Shown: positions 505 to 6,160 of the stretch, piece by piece | Position numbering within the stretch: position 1 is the first letter of the stretch | How the letters are laid out: every line of letters begins with the position of its first letter | Made by a program: the position numbers and the translations under genes | Origin: Candidatus Odinarchaeia archaeon | GTDB taxonomy: Archaea > Asgardarchaeota > Odinarchaeia > Odinarchaeales > Odinarchaeaceae | Assembly (NCBI GenBank): GCA_029856525.1 | Contig: JAHQXC010000004.1 | Location: 5,365-37,364, forward strand | Length of the DNA: 32,000 nt | Direction of reading: 5' to 3' | Notes under the pieces: model-generated | Databases searched by the model: none | What the model was told of the DNA's origin: nothing | The model's input: only the letters and a program-made list of their open reading frames with translations

Positions 505-660
505 TCAACGTTTAACAGGAAACTCATAACCACACTCAGGGCATTTACAAAAACCACAGTCGCCTAAAGACCTACTAGGGCATGAACCGCACGCGAAAAC
601 TCGACCATAAGATATATTAAAGGTGAAACCGCATTTAGGGCATTTAACAAGATTACTCAT
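505..660 (-). CDS. Cys-rich zinc-binding microprotein (51 aa), not in the ORF track
   Basis: Manual translation: MSNLVKCPKCGFTFNISYGRVFACGSCPSRSLGDCGFCKCPECGYEFPVKR*. 8 Cys in CxxC/CPxCG motifs, GGTTGAT RBS-like sequence before the ATG, fills the intergenic gap. Confidence 0.8.
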   Translation of the reverse strand: MSNLVKCPKCGFTFNISYGRVFACGSCPSRSLGDCGFCKCPECGYEFPVKR

Positions 661-812
661 ATCAACCATCTCTTTAAGCTAAAGAAACTTTAACCATACA
701 TTTTTTAAACTTAACTCTAAATTACAGCTATATAAGCTGAGAGGAAACAATAAATACCAGCGTTAGCAAATTAACTATAATAATTTTAATCCATGTTTAA
801 GATTGATGGAAA

Positions 813-1436
813 ATGGAGATCAAAGGATATATATTGATAAAAGGGAATGTATACCCGGCCTCTGAAGTGTTAAAGGCGATTGCTAAAAATCCTCATATAA
901 GGTTATCTTTAACTGATAAAGGAGCTCTACTGATAGGGGACTCCAAGATCGATAAATTAAACGAGCCTCTACCGAACATAATCAAAAACATTCTCTGCTT
1001 TAAAGCGTTAGCATACTGCTGTCCACTAGACAGGCCTTGCTCCAACCGAGATTTAGCATTAGAATTATTGGGGATAAGTAAAACAGTGTATAAGAATCTT
1101 AAAGAAGAATTCGAGGGGAAACTGTTAAACTATATTAGTGAATCAGGAATTCAAGGTAAATCTATACCAGGTAAAGAAATATTTTACAGTGAGCAACCTG
1201 ACCGTGATATTTTAGAAGAATGGGATTTCTCATCTCTATCGAAACCTGAGAATCCTTATAAAAATGTAGAGGAGAGTAAACATGGAGAGACTGACGCGTT
1301 AAACTTCTTTACAATTTTAAGCGGTGAAACAGAATCTGAAAGACGGAAAGAAATTTATTGTAAAAGATGCGGGCGAAGCGTCGAAGCTTCAGCCAGATAC
1401 TGTCCTAATTGTGGTAGTTTAATCGAAAAAGTTTAA
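813..1436 (+). CDS. Hypothetical protein with a methanogenesis-marker-9/COG4008-like Cys motif and a C-terminal zinc ribbon
   Basis: Internal CFKALAYCCPLDRPCSNRDLALELLGISKTVYKNLKEEF; C-terminal CKRCG-x8-YCPNCG. Confidence 0.7.
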   Translation: MEIKGYILIKGNVYPASEVLKAIAKNPHIRLSLTDKGALLIGDSKIDKLNEPLPNIIKNILCFKALAYCCPLDRPCSNRDLALELLGISKTVYKNLKEEFEGKLLNYISESGIQGKSIPGKEIFYSEQPDRDILEEWDFSSLSKPENPYKNVEESKHGETDALNFFTILSGETESERRKEIYCKRCGRSVEASARYCPNCGSLIEKV

Positions 1437-1450
1437 AATAATTACAGAAA

Positions 1451-1587
1451 TTAGTTTTATAAATTTCGCTGCTGGAAGAGCAATGGTTTTAAGTGGTTGA
1501 TGCGAACCAGCCTAAAATCTCACAGTGTACTTGTTAACAGCACGCTGCGCGAGGGGAGAACCCCGTCTTTAGATGTGGGTAGTTCAC
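1451..1587 (+). mobile_element. Non-autonomous IS200/IS605-like element (omega-RNA/MITE-like), copy A
   Basis: First 91 nt match 4394-4484 except one base. Ends GAACCCCGTCTTTAGATGTGGGTAGTTCAC, resembling the hairpin plus TCAC right end of tnpB-encoding IS200/IS605 elements. No ORF. Confidence 0.7.
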
Positions 1588-1589
1588 TT

Positions 1590-2522
1590 TCAAGTTATTA
1601 AAGGTTTAATTCTTCTCCCAACATTAAACATTCTAAACCATTCACTGTCATTTAAAAATAATCCAGCGTAGGCTCCAGCATTACATCCTATACCACACCT
1701 TTCACATATAGGTTTAGCTCCATCACTATCTGTATTAGAAATCACGCATGATTGTTTTCTTCTACCTTTATTATCCAAATTTATAAAAAACCATTTCGGA
1801 CAGTTTAAACTCCACCCTCCATCTCTAAATAAATTTAACTGCATTGAGGTGTTAGCGATAAAATCAGGGAGTTTCTCTTTTATTCTTATTATGTTATCTA
1901 TAGTAGCATTCCGCTCTTTCCCGTAGGGTAACCACAATTCGTCATCATAGGAAAACGGTGTGTGAAACTGAAATGTAATCGCTTGAGCTATAGGATACCA
2001 CTCGCTAATAACTTTCGGAATTACTTTATAGTTTAATCTGTTTATCGTCATATTAATTACACATTTTATATCTGGATGGTCAATTATATTCTGTTTTATT
2101 TTTTCGTATATTTTCGCGCCTCTAATCATATTATGTATCGACTCTGTTCCATCTATCGAGGTGAAATAACCCACACCGAAATTAATTAAAGGGATTGTCC
2201 CATTTGTTACTATGGAGACATTCCTCCACTTCATCTCATCTAAAATAGCTTCAATAACATCAACTCTAAGAAGCGGTTCACCGCCAGTTAAACTAATAGC
2301 GCATACTCCTTTCTCTATAATTTCTTTCCTTACTATACTTCTCCATTCATCGGCGCTTAACTCCCTGCTTGAATCATTATTTCGCCACCAGTAGCAGTGA
2401 ATACAATTTAAATTACAGGCAGAGGTAATATCTATAGAACCGAATATCGGAATTTTTTTACCAAACAACTTTATTTGAATTATCTTCGAAGCGATTTCAG
2501 CGATGGTAATTATTTTTTTCAA
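1590..2522 (-). CDS. Radical SAM protein with Cys-rich C-terminal (twitch/SPASM-like) extension
   Basis: CNLNCIHC (CxxxCxxC), LTGGEPLL, IVTNG, SIDG; C-terminal CPKW...CVIS...CERCGIGC. Confidence 0.9.
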   Translation of the reverse strand: MKKIITIAEIASKIIQIKLFGKKIPIFGSIDITSACNLNCIHCYWWRNNDSSRELSADEWRSIVRKEIIEKGVCAISLTGGEPLLRVDVIEAILDEMKWRNVSIVTNGTIPLINFGVGYFTSIDGTESIHNMIRGAKIYEKIKQNIIDHPDIKCVINMTINRLNYKVIPKVISEWYPIAQAITFQFHTPFSYDDELWLPYGKERNATIDNIIRIKEKLPDFIANTSMQLNLFRDGGWSLNCPKWFFINLDNKGRRKQSCVISNTDSDGAKPICERCGIGCNAGAYAGLFLNDSEWFRMFNVGRRIKPLIT

Positions 2523-2862
2523 TTAAAAGCCTTCCTTAAATTATATGGATATGAAATTAATTTTATATTTTTTTTAAAAAATTTTTAGAATATAAATTAC
2601 TCTAAAAAATAAATTAACCTATATCCAAATCTATGTACTTTAACTAACACCAGCTTTTAAAGTTGTTTAAATTTTATTTTAACCCTGCTCGCTGGAAGCC
2701 ATCTCCAAATAGATGAGGGCTCCCTGTTCCTATTTTGCTATGACTTATGACAAGGACACAGTTTATATTTACAGGTAATGTTTAGTTCATGCTACTAACC
2801 GGTCGGCGGTAAGGCAAGATGCGCCTTTATGTAATTTCACAGTATAAATCTTCTAGATAACC

Positions 2863-3858
2863 TTATCTGCCTAAATGAAGTTCTCTAAGCTGATTGTATC
2901 CTGAAAGATAACAGTTATATGTGTATATTTCTTCAGCGGAAATCTTATCAGCTATTGATTTAATTATGTTCAATTCATCCTCGCCTGTTATATTCCAATA
3001 GAGGAGAGCTGGTTTAACATCTCTGTGTTTAAATGATTCACTCTTAGATATCGATGACGTCAATCTATTATACTCTGTAGTGTTAACTTCAGGAAGTATA
3101 GGAGTCCACGGGTGAATGTTAAACACTATCTTAGTAGCGCGGCTTATTGACTCAACATTTTGCCCGTACTCTAATTCTAAGTTCTCTGTATAGTTTACAG
3201 CTGGTTCAAGATAAATTTCAGAGTAAACTTCAAGCTTCTCGTTAACTTTTCTTAAACGCTCTACAAGTGTTGTTATCATACTTGATAGTTTATCCGCCCT
3301 CCACATTAACCATTTAGACTGCAAGTCACGGTCTGCTTGTATTCTATTAAAGTCGAATGAGGCGGGTATACCCGCTATCTGACTGAACTCTGCTTTACAA
3401 TTATCACAGAAACAGTAATTTCTATTTGTAAAAGTGTTTCCTGCAAGTATAACACCTTTAACAGGGTATTGGGCAACTTCTTCTAAGATTTTGGCAAGAT
3501 AGTTGACAGTCATCTCAGAAGGGCATATATGGGTTGCACTAATCTGACCGCCAGATTTAACACTAGAGTATTTTGGATCCTCAGCCATATAATTATCTAA
3601 AAGCGTGTTGACAACAGCATAGACGTCGAAAATATCAGATGAAATTTTAATAAATTCATTTAGAAAGTTTCCGTGAACAGGATCCTTTGGGGCTGTTGAA
3701 CTATCATAGAATACGCGGCCTGATGGAGGTTTAACAACTAACCCTATTTTTGAGAGATTCCCCCCGTATTCAGCTATAAACTGAGATGGCTTCATATTAA
3801 TAGCAGTCGGATCTAGTATCAGATTCAGATTATTAACTAAAAGCTCTCTTAAATCCAT
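2863..3858 (-). CDS. Hypothetical protein, probable glycoside-hydrolase-like TIM barrel with a CFCDNC motif
   Basis: 331-aa ORF. HICPS...YLAKILEEV..YPVKGVIL...YCFCDNCKAEF...WLMWR resembles GHL10/DUF187-like barrels (recognition only). Confidence 0.5.
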   Translation of the reverse strand: MDLRELLVNNLNLILDPTAINMKPSQFIAEYGGNLSKIGLVVKPPSGRVFYDSSTAPKDPVHGNFLNEFIKISSDIFDVYAVVNTLLDNYMAEDPKYSSVKSGGQISATHICPSEMTVNYLAKILEEVAQYPVKGVILAGNTFTNRNYCFCDNCKAEFSQIAGIPASFDFNRIQADRDLQSKWLMWRADKLSSMITTLVERLRKVNEKLEVYSEIYLEPAVNYTENLELEYGQNVESISRATKIVFNIHPWTPILPEVNTTEYNRLTSSISKSESFKHRDVKPALLYWNITGEDELNIIKSIADKISAEEIYTYNCYLSGYNQLRELHLGR

Positions 3859-4000
3859 GATACCACCCTAAAAAACATATTTTTCTAGTATTGAATATTT
3901 CAACAGATATTTATAAACTACTCTAAGATCTTAACTTCACCGGTATGGACTTTCAATTTAATATGAAGATTTGAAAACTAAAACACCTTATATTCCACGG

Positions 4001-4094
4001 CTCACTAGACGTGTCCTAGCTGACGGTACACTCGCAGACACTGAAGCCTCAGCTTGAGCGTGGGAATTGAGCTTGATCGGGTAAGTGTCTGCGA
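4001..4094. ncRNA. Candidate structured non-coding RNA (strand undetermined)
   Basis: 48/90 GC over 4001-4090 versus 7/50 over 4101-4150. Perfect 11-bp stem TCGCAGACACT (4032-4042)/AGTGTCTGCGA (4084-4094). No start-containing ORF found. Confidence 0.45.
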
Positions 4095-4149
4095 AAACTG
4101 TAGTATTTTAACTCTCTAAAAACGAAACTTTAAATTTTAAATAAAAATT

Positions 4150-4293
4150 TTATCGGCACATTATTTTTTTCACTATTGGCGGTCTAACCTTATATAATAC
4201 ACGGTAACCGCAATATGGACATTTAACACCGGACACCGTTTTAAGACTCTCTATTGTAATCTCTTTCTTGCAATTCCCGCAGATATAACTCAT
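4150..4293 (-). CDS. rpoP: DNA-directed RNA polymerase subunit P (Rpo12), not in the ORF track
   Basis: Manual translation: MSYICGNCKKEITIESLKTVSGVKCPYCGYRVLYKVRPPIVKKIMCR*, with the YxCxxC...vkCPYCGxRvlyKxRP signature. Confidence 0.95.
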   Translation of the reverse strand: MSYICGNCKKEITIESLKTVSGVKCPYCGYRVLYKVRPPIVKKIMCR

Positions 4294-4393
4294 CTTAAAC
4301 CACTTCCCTGATCAATGAGGATTCCTTTAATATAAAAATTACGTTTATATTTAAAGTTAACTTGAATTATAGAATAAGCCGTCTAGATCATCC

Positions 4394-4526
4394 TTAGTTT
4401 TATAAATTTCGCTGCTAGAAGAGCAATGGTTTTAAGTGGTTGATGCGAACCAGCCTAAAATCTCACAGTGTACTTGTTAACAGCCCGCTGTGCGGGGGAA
4501 GCCACCGTCTTTATACTGTAGGAGTC
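4394..4526 (+). mobile_element. Non-autonomous IS200/IS605-like element (omega-RNA/MITE-like), copy B, 3' end more degenerate
   Basis: Direct repeat of 1451-1587. 3' part CCCGCTGTGCGGGGGAAGCCACCGTCTTTATACTGTAGGAGTC; right boundary approximate. Confidence 0.65.
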
Positions 4527-4661
4527 TAATTTAAGAATAATAAAGTATAAATATTAAGTAACATCTTTTTATTAGTCAGAGGCTCAGTTGTTAAGCAAAG
4601 TTTTATATTTATAATATTTCTAAATTCATTTAAAAAAATTGAAATTATGAGGAAAATTTGA

Positions 4662-4973
4662 ATGGGTTTAGAGATCTGTGCTAAGTGCGGTTTGCCTAAG
4701 GATTTATGTGTTTGCGAGCAGATTGTTAAAGAGGAGCAGCGTATAAAGATACGCACGGAGAAAAGGAAGTGGGGTCGTGAAGTCACGGTTATAAGCGGCT
4801 TAGATAAGAAAGAGGTTAATATCGATGAGTTAGCTAGTAAGCTGAAGGCTAGTTGTGCTTGCGGTGGAACATATAAAAACGATCAGATAGAGTTGCAGGG
4901 TGCTCATAAAGAGAAAGTCAAGGAGTTGCTGATCTCCTGGGGTTTCTCCGAGGATAAAATAGACGTTAGATAA
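4662..4973 (+). CDS. sui1: Translation initiation factor aIF1 (SUI1 family)
   Basis: N-terminal CAKCGLPKDLCVCE; IKIRTEKRKWGREVTVISG; LASKLKASCACGGTYKNDQIELQG. Confidence 0.95.
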   Translation: MGLEICAKCGLPKDLCVCEQIVKEEQRIKIRTEKRKWGREVTVISGLDKKEVNIDELASKLKASCACGGTYKNDQIELQGAHKEKVKELLISWGFSEDKIDVR

Positions 4974-4995
4974 AATTTTATAATGGACGATTGAA

Positions 4996-5238
4996 ATGAA
5001 CTTTTTTAAAAGGCGTAGTCGACCTAAAGAAGGCTATGTTTTAATAAGATTATGCCCTGTATGCGGTTCAAGTAAGCTTAGAGAATTCAACTTTCTATCT
5101 GGCTGGTATACTCAGCTTCAATATATTTGCGAGTCTTGCGGTTATTCAGGCCCATTATATTTAGAGGTTGAAGTTGAAAAAAACCAGGTGAACGACCAGA
5201 ATACTAGTGGAGTTGTTAACCGTGAAGATACTTTATGA
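4996..5238 (+). CDS. Small zinc-ribbon protein
   Basis: CPVCGS...YICESCGYSGP. The 3' end overlaps the convergent epimerase gene (5216-5238). Confidence 0.75.
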   Translation: MNFFKRRSRPKEGYVLIRLCPVCGSSKLREFNFLSGWYTQLQYICESCGYSGPLYLEVEVEKNQVNDQNTSGVVNREDTL

Positions 5239-6160
5239 ATCTTCTAATACCTTCAGCTATGGTTATTTTAGGCTGCCAGCCGAGTCTCTTTATTTTTCCA
5301 ATATCTAGTAGCATTTTAGGAATATCGCCGGCCCAGCCTCCTCTCCCACCTGTGAACACGTATCTAACATTTTTTAACCCTAACATATCTACGATGATAT
5401 CTGCGATTTCTCTGACGGTTATCCATTCTTCAGAACCGATGTTAAAGAAATCGAAGCCTTTAATATTCTGTTCTTTCAGATAAAAGACAGCGTCGATGCA
5501 ATCATCTATATATAAGTAAGATTTTTTTTGCTGCCCGTCTCCTAATATTTTTAATTCATCTGGTTTATTAATTAATTTATGATAGAAGTCGTATATCACT
5601 CCGTGAGTTGATCTAGGTCCGAAGATATTCGCAAACCTGCAGGAGATTATGTTTAAACCATATGTCTGCGCGTAAGCTGAACAATACATTTCACAGCTCG
5701 CTTTTGAAGCACCGTAGCAGCTTACAGGTTTAAGAGGAGCTGTTTCAGGGGTTGGAAGAATGTCAGCTTCACCGTATAATGTTCCACCTGAACTGGCGAA
5801 TATGATTTTATTCACATCCGTTTTTCTAGAAGCTTCGAGAATATTTAATGTTCCTAAAGTGTTTATCATAAAATTTTTAACAGGGTCAGCGGCGCTAGCG
5901 TCTACACGCGGATCAGCTGCGAAATGGAAGATTTCTCTAACATCTCTGCAAGCTTCTAAAACAGTTTCAGCGTCTCTTATATCCCCTTTTATGAATTTCA
6001 CTTTTTTATTTTCGACGAGTTGTTTATAATAATCTCCTGCAGGGGATGAGAGATTATCTAGGATAACCACCTCCTCCCCCCTATTAATTAAGCGATCCAC
6101 TATGTGACTGCCTATAAACCCTGCTCCCCCTGTTACTAACACATAACTCATATAGTTCAC
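5216..6160 (-). CDS. NAD-dependent epimerase/dehydratase (UDP-glucose 4-epimerase-like)
   Basis: TGGAGFIG Rossmann motif, YGASK catalytic motif, RFANIFGP. The start may be the ATG at 6151. Confidence 0.92.
   Translation of the reverse strand: MNYMSYVLVTGGAGFIGSHIVDRLINRGEEVVILDNLSSPAGDYYKQLVENKKVKFIKGDIRDAETVLEACRDVREIFHFAADPRVDASAADPVKNFMINTLGTLNILEASRKTDVNKIIFASSGGTLYGEADILPTPETAPLKPVSCYGASKASCEMYCSAYAQTYGLNIISCRFANIFGPRSTHGVIYDFYHKLINKPDELKILGDGQQKKSYLYIDDCIDAVFYLKEQNIKGFDFFNIGSEEWITVREIADIIVDMLGLKNVRYVFTGGRGGWAGDIPKMLLDIGKIKRLGWQPKITIAEGIRRFIKYLHG

What the first reader, a model, noticed from the sequence alone, without database searches (positions are those of the whole stretch)
1451..4526. 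Two ~135-nt ORF-less elements with tnpB-type right ends: candidate stand-alone omega-RNA guide cassettes/MITEs
Seen: 1451-1541 and 4394-4484 are identical except G1474/A4417, which lies in the loop of a TGCT/AGCA hairpin. Both start at TTAG followed by TTTTATAAA (TATA-like) and contain TGGTT-GATGCG-AACCA and a CGC-TG(C/T)-GCG hairpin; an A.A mismatch in copy A is a C-G pair in copy B. Copy A ends GAACCCCGTCTTTAGATGTGGGTAGTTCAC. Established: IS200/IS605 elements insert 3' of a 4-5 nt motif without target duplication, and the TnpB guide RNA is the right end plus 3' flank. Inference: these are internally deleted elements that may carry their own promoter and load a TnpB encoded elsewhere. Guides would begin TTTCAAGTTATTAAAG (A) and about TAATTTAAGAATAATA (B); TTAG may be the target/TAM. 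This is the best candidate for an undescribed RNA-guided system in the window.
Basis: partly seen in the sequence, partly recalled or inferred. Interest (0 to 1): 0.72.

Follow-up and report, generated by a model that had tools for sequence, protein, structure and literature searches.

The report
Gene-less TnpB transposon relics (PATEs)
The two ~135-base repeats are protein-less, internally deleted copies of an IS200/IS605-type (TnpB) transposon that keep the parent's promoter, its two ends and about two thirds of its guide-RNA scaffold; this kind of element is already described, so it is a clean example and not a new RNA-guided system.

Summary
The repeat is real: window 1451-1541 and 4394-4484 differ at one base, and the copies then diverge. 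They belong to a family with about 10 right ends and 11 left ends in this 1.32-Mb archaeal genome. One member (contig C121) still holds a decayed tnpB C-terminus. Intact tnpB elements with homologous left and right ends occur in related genomes (G004, G006, G007, G018, G028). Copies A and B are the shortest derivative, with the left end fused to the 3' ~90 nt of the omega-RNA scaffold at a TGATG microhomology. Neither copy is present at the matching sites of three same-genus genomes, so they are insertions and not a conserved host RNA. Copy A keeps the family's consensus 3' module (loop GCGAAC, terminal hairpin, tail TAGTTCAC). Copy B's 3' end is decayed. No cognate TnpB is in the assembly; the two intact TnpBs are 27-36% identical. 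The would-be guides match only their own flanks, and no RNA data exist. Gene-less IS605 derivatives (PATEs) that encode omega-RNAs are published (Dyall-Smith 2011; Meers 2023). This scan has also reported them repeatedly on other DNA of this same genome. Verdict: new member of a known kind, low interest.

The parts
1451..1454 (+). TTAG left flank of copy A (candidate target/TAM)
   Evidence: The same 4 nt precede copy B. T-A-R precedes the TTTTATAAA of 6 of 9 family left ends. The first two T's align with flank DNA of same-genus G002. Whether it is target DNA or part of the element is not resolved.
1455..1502 (+). Copy A left end (LE) remnant. It holds the TATA-like TTTTATAAA (1455-1463), the small TGCT/AGCA hairpin (1470-1482) and the eroded LE palindrome CAATGG-TTTTAAG-TGGTTG (1481-1499).
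   Evidence: It is homologous to the LE of C14, C111, C77, C121 and C125 and to the LE of intact tnpB elements in G004, G006, G018, G028 and G122: TTTAT..AGAAGAC + hairpin + GATGAAT. The palindrome is strong in C14 (-8.8 kcal/mol, 3 of 200 shuffles fold as well) but degenerate here.
1498..1502 (+). Core-deletion junction (TGATG microhomology) of copy A
   Evidence: LE ...GGTGGATGAATT and RE ...GGGCTGATGTGAACC of the longer copies share TGATG. A and B join LE and RE exactly there and lack the ~45-nt 5' scaffold block GTGAATATAGG...GGGAG.
1495..1587 (+). Copy A right end, i.e. the 3' module of the omega-RNA scaffold. It holds stem GGTTG/CAGCC with loop ATGCGAAC (1495-1512), the conserved core CACAGTGTACTTGTTAACAGC (1521-1541), a small hairpin (1541-1553), the terminal hairpin (1561-1579) and the tail TAGTTCAC (1580-1587).
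   Evidence: The nhmmer RE profile gives E 6e-26. The architecture is shared with intact elements. The tail TAGTTCAC is identical to the consensus of 10 of the 11 elements from other genomes; G006 and G004b have CAGTTCAC. The loop GCGAAC also occurs in the G028 element.
1588..1603 (+). Would-be guide of copy A (TTTCAAGTTATTAAAG), antisense to the last codons and stop of the radical-SAM gene (1590-2522, minus strand)
   Evidence: Position follows from the RE end. It has no other match with up to 1 mismatch in the genome and no TTAG-adjacent match.
4394..4397 (+). TTAG left flank of copy B
4398..4445 (+). Copy B left end remnant (TATA 4398-4406, hairpin 4413-4425, eroded palindrome 4424-4442, junction TGATG 4441-4445)
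   Evidence: Identical to copy A except A4417. nhmmer LE gives E 9.5e-15.
4438..4529 (+). Copy B right end. The 5' half is identical to copy A. The 3' half (from 4485) is of a different lineage, with a weak terminal hairpin (4502-4522) and a deviant tail GAGTCTAA (4522-4529).
   Evidence: nhmmer RE gives E 2.3e-23. The 3' segment is 27/44 identical to A and 31/43 to C125. The candidate pseudoknot keeps only 3 of 6 pairs.
4530..4545 (+). Would-be guide of copy B (TTTAAGAATAATAAAG), in the rpoP-SUI1 intergenic region
   Evidence: It has no perfect second match in the genome. The one 1-mismatch hit is not TTAG-adjacent.

Best explanation
Copies A (1455-1587) and B (4398-4529) are PATE/MITE-like, non-autonomous derivatives of an IS200/IS605-family element of the tnpB-only (IS1341) type.

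The parent had a left end with a TATA-box promoter and a subterminal hairpin followed by GATGAAT. It then had tnpB, and a right end that overlaps the tnpB 3' end and encodes the omega-RNA scaffold, ending ...hairpin-TAGTTCAC.

In this genome the family has decayed. Most copies lost tnpB through core deletions. A and B carry a further deletion between TGATG repeats, which fuses the promoter and left end directly to the last ~90 nt of the scaffold.

They reached their present sites by insertion, presumably mobilised in trans by a Y1 TnpA. The genome's only TnpA, on contig C44, belongs to an element with a homologous left end. One or both copies were later reshuffled by recombination with other family members, which would explain the identical 5' 91 nt and the unrelated 3' 45 nt.

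Shown: family membership, descent from a tnpB element, absence from congeners, and the deletion architecture. Inferred: the promoter is active, TnpA(C44) mobilises the copies, and recombination made the mosaic.

Most likely both copies are now relics. Copy A could still yield a scaffold-plus-flank RNA with an intact-looking 3' module. Copy B probably could not.
For: 1. Repeat family: 7 BLAST copies, then 10 RE and 11 LE nhmmer hits in the own genome.

2. tnpB descent: C121 has ...CWGCNS..KCRDCALEYNRDLTGSVNIGSR (Pfam PF07282, 33.9 bits) running into the same RE. It is 50% identical over 52 aa to the G006 TnpB.

3. Intact relatives:
- The G006 tnpB is 417 aa (PF07282, E 2.9e-19), with an RE hit at E 1.4e-9 and a homologous LE.
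- G004 copies are 79-82% identical to it.
- G007, G018 and G028 copies are 56-76% identical, each followed by an RE ending TAGTTCAC.

4. Conserved RNA/ssDNA architecture with compensatory changes:
- The first stem varies as GGGCUG/CAGCCC, GGGCG/CGCCC, GGGCCG/CGGCCC and GGUUG/CAGCC.
- The terminal hairpin arms vary as CCCCU/AGGGG, CCCUC/GAGGG, CCAUCG/CGAUGG and CUCCCGAC/GUCGAGGAG.
- The loop hexamer GUGAAC is complementary to the terminal GUUCAC, and becomes GUGAGC with GCUCAC in the C93 element.

5. Mobility: element B is absent from the rpoP-SUI1 spacer of G001, G002 and G003 (16-67 nt there, against ~220 nt here). No family hit was found in those genomes.

6. No target-site duplication and no terminal inverted repeats, which fits the PATE definition (PMC3119063).

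7. The LE of the C44 TnpA+TnpB element is homologous to the PATE LE.
Against: - No precise empty site (TTAG joined to the 3' flank) could be shown. The congeners are only 75-84% identical in these spacers, and the metagenome contigs gave no joints.
- The LE palindrome that TnpA should bind is eroded in A and B. This sits badly with a very recent TnpA-mediated copy event.
- The 91-nt identity could instead reflect gene conversion.
- The TAM is not established. Older copies have TGTA, TACC or AATC where A and B have TTAG.
- Expression is untested.
Confidence: 0.87

Rival explanations
1. Functional stand-alone guide cassettes. The LE promoter transcribes the truncated scaffold plus flank, and a TnpB encoded elsewhere (for example the C93 TnpB, or an unassembled cognate) loads it. 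That TnpB then cuts the vacated site to keep the element in place.
For: - Copy A keeps the consensus tail TAGTTCAC, a 7-bp terminal hairpin and the stem with loop GCGAAC. The same loop occurs in the G028 tnpB element.
- A TATA-like box is a conserved LE feature across the family.
- The C93 TnpB element has the same 3' layout: loop GUGAGC, a TTTA-loop hairpin and tail TAGCTCAC.
- For ISDra2, the 5' part of the omega-RNA (-231 to -117) is dispensable (review PMC13639567).
- Meers et al. propose exactly this for PATEs (PMC10055086).
Against: - No cognate TnpB is in the 93%-complete assembly. The best full-length matches are 27.5% (C93) and 36% over 97 aa (C44).
- C93's pseudoknot and tail letters differ from A's.
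- Copy B's tail (GAGTCTAA) and hairpin depart from the consensus, and only 3 of 6 pseudoknot pairs remain.
- A and B lack the ~45-nt 5' scaffold block kept by every other copy.
- Family copies are 25-40% diverged from each other, as expected for neutral decay.
Confidence: 0.1
2. A duplicated host non-coding RNA gene or promoter module, unrelated to transposons.
For: Both copies sit in intergenic DNA next to core genes (rpoP, SUI1) and start with a good archaeal TATA box.
Against: A tnpB remnant and intact tnpB genes sit directly upstream of the same sequence elsewhere. The copies are absent from three congeners at the matching sites. There is no Rfam family match.
Confidence: 0.02
3. The 91-nt identity is not from transposition. 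Instead, gene conversion or recombination between two older, independently inserted family members homogenised it. On this reading A and B are old relics, and nothing in the family is currently mobile.
For: - The mosaic pattern is 90/91 identical, then 27/44.
- The switch point lies in the family's most conserved core.
- The LE palindrome is eroded.
- A's two flanks come from different genomic contexts, and the radical-SAM protein ends 13 aa early at the RE junction.
Against: The identity starts exactly at the element's left boundary (TTAG+TTTTATAAA), where no homology is available to prime conversion. Both copies share the same rare TGATG core deletion.
Confidence: 0.3

Closest known systems
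PATEs (palindrome-associated transposable elements) of IS605-type transposons, defined in Haloquadratum walsbyi (Dyall-Smith et al. 2011, PMC3119063)
   Same: [quoted passage not shown] No terminal inverted repeats and no target duplication. Near-terminal palindromes related to those of IS605/IS1341-type elements. Derived from full elements by repeat-mediated core deletion. Heterogeneous families with a conserved terminal oligonucleotide. All of these are seen here.
   Different: The host is a different lineage: a small AT-rich archaeon from sediment or hot-spring metagenomes. In A and B the left palindrome is eroded. A and B are a second-step deletion derivative of an already gene-less element.
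PATE-like elements that encode omega-RNAs in Geobacillus stearothermophilus, with the TnpB homing model (Meers et al. 2023, PMC10055086)
   Same: Protein-less LE+RE elements that retain the guide-RNA scaffold and would need TnpA and TnpB in trans. The guide is the 3' flank, and the TAM is the motif 5' of the LE.
   Different: In that work, activity of TnpA and TnpB was shown experimentally and cognate proteins are present. Here no cognate TnpB is in the assembly and nothing has been shown to be expressed.
ISDra2 TnpB omega-RNA (Karvelis 2021; Nakagawa 2023; Sasnauskas 2023, as summarised in PMC13639567)
   Same: The scaffold derives from the tnpB 3' end plus the RE. It has several stems and a pseudoknot, with the guide at the 3' end. 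The 5' part is dispensable.
   Different: No sequence or Rfam-level similarity. The pseudoknot here (loop GUGAAC with terminal GUUCAC) is inferred from complementarity and one compensatory pair, not from a structure.
sotRNAs at the 3' end of IS1341-type tnpB genes in Halobacterium (Gomes-Filho et al. 2015, PMC4615843)
   Same: An archaeal non-coding RNA that overlaps the tnpB 3' end, i.e. the archaeal omega-RNA.
   Different: Those lie within intact tnpB genes and were detected as transcripts. Here the gene is gone and no transcript data exist.

Membership tests
IS200/IS605-derived PATE | Too short to encode a transposase; no ORF | tested here: met
   133 and 132 nt. No ORF of 50 aa or more lies inside either element.
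IS200/IS605-derived PATE | No terminal inverted repeats and no target-site duplication | tested here: met
   The ends are TTTTATAAA... and ...TAGTTCAC. The flanks are ..ATTAG / TTTCAAG and ..CTTAG / TTTAAGA, with no direct repeat.
IS200/IS605-derived PATE | Near-terminal palindromes at both ends, related to those of IS605-type transposons | tested here: inconclusive
   The family meets this. C14 has the LE hairpin CCGCCGC-TTTTAA-GCGGTGG at -8.8 kcal/mol, with 3 of 200 shuffles folding as well. G006, G004 and C44 have covarying LE hairpins, and RE hairpins covary. In A and B themselves the LE palindrome is degenerate and the RE hairpins are no better than shuffles.
IS200/IS605-derived PATE | Sequence homology of both ends to a full element that carries tnpB (and/or tnpA) | tested here: met
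   The RE is homologous to that of the C121 remnant and of the G006, G004, G007, G018 and G028 elements. The LE is homologous as well.
IS200/IS605-derived PATE | Mobility: presence/absence polymorphism with a scarless empty site 3' of a 4-5-nt target | tested here: inconclusive
   Absent at the orthologous spacer in G001-G003. The spacers are too diverged to show a precise TTAG-flank joint, and the metagenome contigs gave no joints.
TnpB omega-RNA (reRNA) | Scaffold derived from the tnpB 3' end plus the RE, immediately followed by flank-derived guide | tested here: met
   The alignment with tnpB-linked REs ends at the same tail ...TAGTTCAC. A and B keep only the 3' ~90 nt.
TnpB omega-RNA (reRNA) | Conserved secondary structure with covariation, including a pseudoknot | tested here: inconclusive
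   Stem 1, an inner helix and the terminal hairpin show compensatory changes across copies and genera. GUGAAC:GUUCAC becomes GUGAGC:GCUCAC in C93. Column-wise statistics were not possible because MAFFT registers slip between subfamilies. No covariance model was built.
TnpB omega-RNA (reRNA) | Transcribed and bound by a cognate TnpB | not testable with these tools
   No RNA run holds the locus. The cognate TnpB was not found in the assembly.
TnpB omega-RNA (reRNA) | Match to a curated omega-RNA, HEARO or IS605-orfB family in Rfam | tested here: not met
   No hit at gathering or at E up to 10. This family of ends is not in Rfam 15.

The most novel reading that the evidence does not exclude
Copy A is a naturally minimised, promoter-driven omega-RNA gene (about 105 nt of scaffold). 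A TnpB supplied in trans, either the C93-type nuclease or an unassembled cognate, still loads it. The genome's scattered gene-less copies would then act as a distributed set of guides that one nuclease uses to defend many insertion sites, a step towards a CRISPR-like separation of guide and effector.
Probability: 0.08. Interest if true: 0.5.

Novelty: new member of a known kind. Interest (0 to 1): 0.2.

Why it matters
The finding documents a decaying IS200/IS605 (TnpB) family and its gene-less derivatives in a small, little-studied archaeal lineage. It also gives a usable description of that family's ends: an LE with TATA box, AGAAGAC, a hairpin and GATGAAT, and an RE with a GUGAAC loop, a covarying terminal hairpin and the tail TAGTTCAC. 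Annotators can use this to mask such repeats instead of calling them novel ncRNAs. The description also gives TnpB miners the guide-RNA boundaries for the intact relatives in G004, G006, G007 and G018. The idea that such elements supply guides in trans is already in the literature, and this window adds no functional evidence for it.

Tried and rejected
- Rfam cmscan at gathering and at E up to 10 gave nothing relevant. ARAGORN found no tRNA or tmRNA.
- Exact-pattern scans for the conserved core (TGATNNGAAC..AGTRTWCTTGTKAAC) in genome contigs, viral contigs and metagenome contigs returned only unrelated chance hits. The family was reached only through the TnpB protein and nhmmer profiles.
- BLASTN of copy A against 40 relatives found no hit outside the own genome. 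The query was too diverged for BLAST, so this is not evidence of absence.
- Sequencing runs: no RNA holder is listed. Contigs of three DNA runs laid on 600-5300 gave no joints or empty-site forms, and the contigs simply break at the repeat.
- Trans targets: the 16-nt flanks of seven copies have no second perfect match and no TTAG-adjacent near-match in the genome.
- RNAalifold on MAFFT alignments recovered only the first stem, a small hairpin and one long-range helix. Register slips between subfamilies prevented more. I did not build a covariance model.
- Single-sequence folds of A and B are no more stable than shuffles.
- I first read ATGGTTTTAAG as a leaderless tnpB start. Comparison with C14, G004 and G006 shows that TTTTAA is the loop of the LE hairpin, so I dropped that reading.
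- The other non-coding stretches between A and B (2523-2862, 3859-4150) are not repeats of any family in the genome.
Full report
**Observation.** The repeat exists as described. The repeat finder reports 1451-1558 and 4394-4501 at 95% identity. Direct reading shows 1451-1541 and 4394-4484 differ only at G1474/A4417. After position 91 the copies diverge sharply, to 27 of 44 aligned bases identical. The small hairpins are not by themselves more stable than shuffled sequence. Their meaning comes from comparison with relatives, not from folding energy.

**Setting.** The window is contig C37 of a 1.32-Mb, 127-contig, 93%-complete genome. The genome is AT-rich and archaeal: RNA polymerase subunit P at 4150-4293 (minus strand) and aSUI1 at 4662-4973. 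DNA runs that hold it come from sediment and hot-spring metagenomes.
- Copy A lies between a zinc-ribbon protein gene (813-1436) and the 3' end of a radical-SAM gene (1590-2522, minus strand).
- Copy B lies between rpoP and SUI1.

**A family, not a pair.** BLASTN of copy A against its own genome finds five more diverged copies of the 3' ~100 nt (73-83% identity). nhmmer profiles raise this to 10 right ends and 11 left ends. In most copies (C14, C111, C77, C125) the left block is TTTTATAAA..AGAAGAC, a hairpin, then GATGAAT. It is separated from the right block by an extra ~45 nt beginning GCGTGAATATAGG.

In contig C121 the two blocks are ~290 nt apart. The DNA between them reads ...CWGCNS..KCRDCALEYNRDLTGSVNIGSR, the zinc ribbon and RuvC-III motif of TnpB (PF07282, 33.9 bits). 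GTGAATATAGG is therefore the codons for VNIG, and the right block is a tnpB 3' end plus transposon right end. That is where TnpB guide RNAs (omega-RNAs) are encoded.

**Intact parents elsewhere.**
- The RE profile hits the 3' end of a 417-aa tnpB in G006, same order but another family (E 1.4e-9; PF07282 E 2.9e-19). Its RE ends GGGGCAGTTCAC.
- The G006 left end has the same AGAAGAC, hairpin and GTGAATT layout, with a covarying hairpin.
- G004 has two copies at 79-82% protein identity.
- A phylum-wide search (400 genomes) finds 56-76% identical TnpBs in G007, G018 and G028, and ~40% identical ones in three further genomes. Each of the eight examined loci is followed by an RE ending TAGTTCAC.
- Their left ends share TTTAT..AAGAAGAC, a hairpin and GATGAAT. 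The TATA-like box is therefore an inherited part of the element, presumably the tnpB promoter, and was not gained by the mini-elements.

**Architecture of the right end.** Across 22 right ends the following recur.
- A stem whose arms covary (GGGCUG/CAGCCC, GGGCG/CGCCC, GGGCCG/CGGCCC, GGUUG/CAGCC). It closes a loop that ends in GUGAAC.
- A long-range helix (CCUCCC/GGGAGG and variants).
- A small hairpin with several pair types.
- A terminal hairpin whose arms differ completely between lineages (CCCCU/AGGGG, CCCUC/GAGGG, CCAUCG/CGAUGG, CUCCCGAC/GUCGAGGAG).
- An 8-nt tail, TAGTTCAC.

The loop hexamer is complementary to the last six bases. In the genome's C93 tnpB element both change together (GUGAGC with GCUCAC), which suggests a pseudoknot next to the guide. 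ISDra2 omega-RNA is known to have a pseudoknot (review PMC13639567). Here it rests on complementarity and one compensatory pair, not on a structure. MAFFT register slips prevented a clean column-wise covariation statistic.

**What A and B are.** They are the shortest family members. The left end is fused to the scaffold at a shared TGATG (1498-1502 and 4441-4445), removing the 5' ~45-nt block. This is the repeat-mediated core deletion described for PATEs (PMC3119063).
- Copy A keeps the stem with loop GCGAAC, a loop also seen in the G028 tnpB element. It also keeps a 7-bp terminal hairpin and the consensus tail TAGTTCAC.
- Copy B shares A's first 91 nt, but its 3' part is of another lineage, nearest C125. 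Its hairpin is weak, its tail is GAGTCTAA, and only 3 of 6 pseudoknot pairs remain.
- In both copies the left palindrome, which is strong in C14, G006 and G004, is eroded.

**Insertion, not conserved host RNA.** In the three same-genus genomes the rpoP-SUI1 spacer is 16-67 nt between the conserved blocks where this genome has about 220 nt, and the element is missing. No family member was found in those genomes or in the syntenic regions.

At site A the left flank is syntenic with G002 up to ...GAAATT. The right flank is a radical-SAM gene that is not syntenic in the congeners; G002 has a beta-carbonic-anhydrase-like gene there. This gene is closest (78%) to genes of another family. Its product ends 13 residues earlier than the G006 orthologue, right at the RE junction. 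Together with the A/B mosaic, this suggests recombination between element copies at the conserved core. I could not show it. A precise empty site was not obtainable because the congeners are too diverged and the metagenome contigs give no joints.

**Can they work as guide cassettes?** The genome has one Y1 TnpA (C44), in an element whose left end is homologous to the PATE left end. It is a plausible mobiliser. For the nuclease the picture is weaker.
- tblastn with the G006 TnpB finds only the 52-aa C121 remnant (50% identity) and two distant TnpBs, C93 at 27.5% and C44 at 36% over 97 aa.
- The 16-nt flanks that would serve as guides match nothing else in the genome. This is what the homing model expects, and it gives no sign of retargeting.
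- No RNA data exist.
- A truncated scaffold is not disqualifying in principle, because ISDra2 tolerates loss of -231 to -117 (PMC13639567).

I put about 10% on copy A still being used in trans, and less on copy B.

**Comparison with what is known.** The elements meet the PATE definition: no ORF, no inverted repeats, no target duplication, and ends homologous to IS605/IS1341-type elements, with origin by core deletion. The one caveat is that the near-terminal palindromes are decayed in these two copies. Meers et al. [quoted passage not shown] Earlier follow-ups in this scan reached the same reading for other pieces of this genome. I reached mine before reading them. I also re-tested three of their points myself: the copy numbers for this subfamily, the missing cognate TnpB, and the GTGAGC/GCTCAC pairing.

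**Verdict.** This is a real and correctly recognised mobile-element relic, but an ordinary one: a new member of a known kind.

Noticed in passing
window 1588-2862: The radical-SAM gene (1590-2522, minus strand) and the 340 nt upstream of it are not syntenic with the three same-genus genomes. G002 has a beta-carbonic-anhydrase-like gene at this spot. The gene is 78% identical to genes of another family (G005, G006) but about 70% identical to non-syntenic paralogues in G001 and G002. Its product ends ...RRIKPLIT*, 13 residues short of the G006 orthologue, exactly at the right-end junction of copy A. This may be a rearrangement mediated by recombination between element copies.
   Followed up: partly
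window 3916-4125: About 150 nt between the GH-like gene and rpoP are present here but not in G001-G003. The stretch holds a GC-rich patch (3990-4100) with an 11-bp stem TCGCAGACACT/AGTGTCTGCGA. It is unique in the genome, has no Rfam match, and its fold z-score is -1.4.
   Followed up: partly
own genome C44:8130-9960 (L025, L070): This is the only Y1 TnpA of the genome, followed by a 447-aa TnpB. Its left end (CTTTACC..AAGAAAGC, hairpin TTACGG-TTTTAA-CCGTGG, ATGAATTG) is homologous to the left end of the gene-less copies. It is a candidate for the transposase that mobilises them.
   Followed up: partly
own genome C93:26009-27305 (L024): An intact 426-aa TnpB sits at a contig end. Its right end has the same layout as the family but with co-changed letters (loop GTGAGC, tail TAGCTCAC). 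The contig stops exactly at the transposon end, as expected for a repeat that breaks the assembly.
   Followed up: partly
own genome C24:13449-13607 and C82:20216-20374: A right-end fragment on the minus strand abuts a variant left end on the plus strand (head-to-head). The two loci share this arrangement, so it may be a composite or rearranged sub-family.
   Followed up: no
L074-L083 (G007, G018, G028 and others): Close homologues (56-76% identity) of the G006 TnpB occur in other families of the phylum but not in the window's own genus. Several carry in-frame stops. This points to horizontal spread followed by decay.
   Followed up: partly
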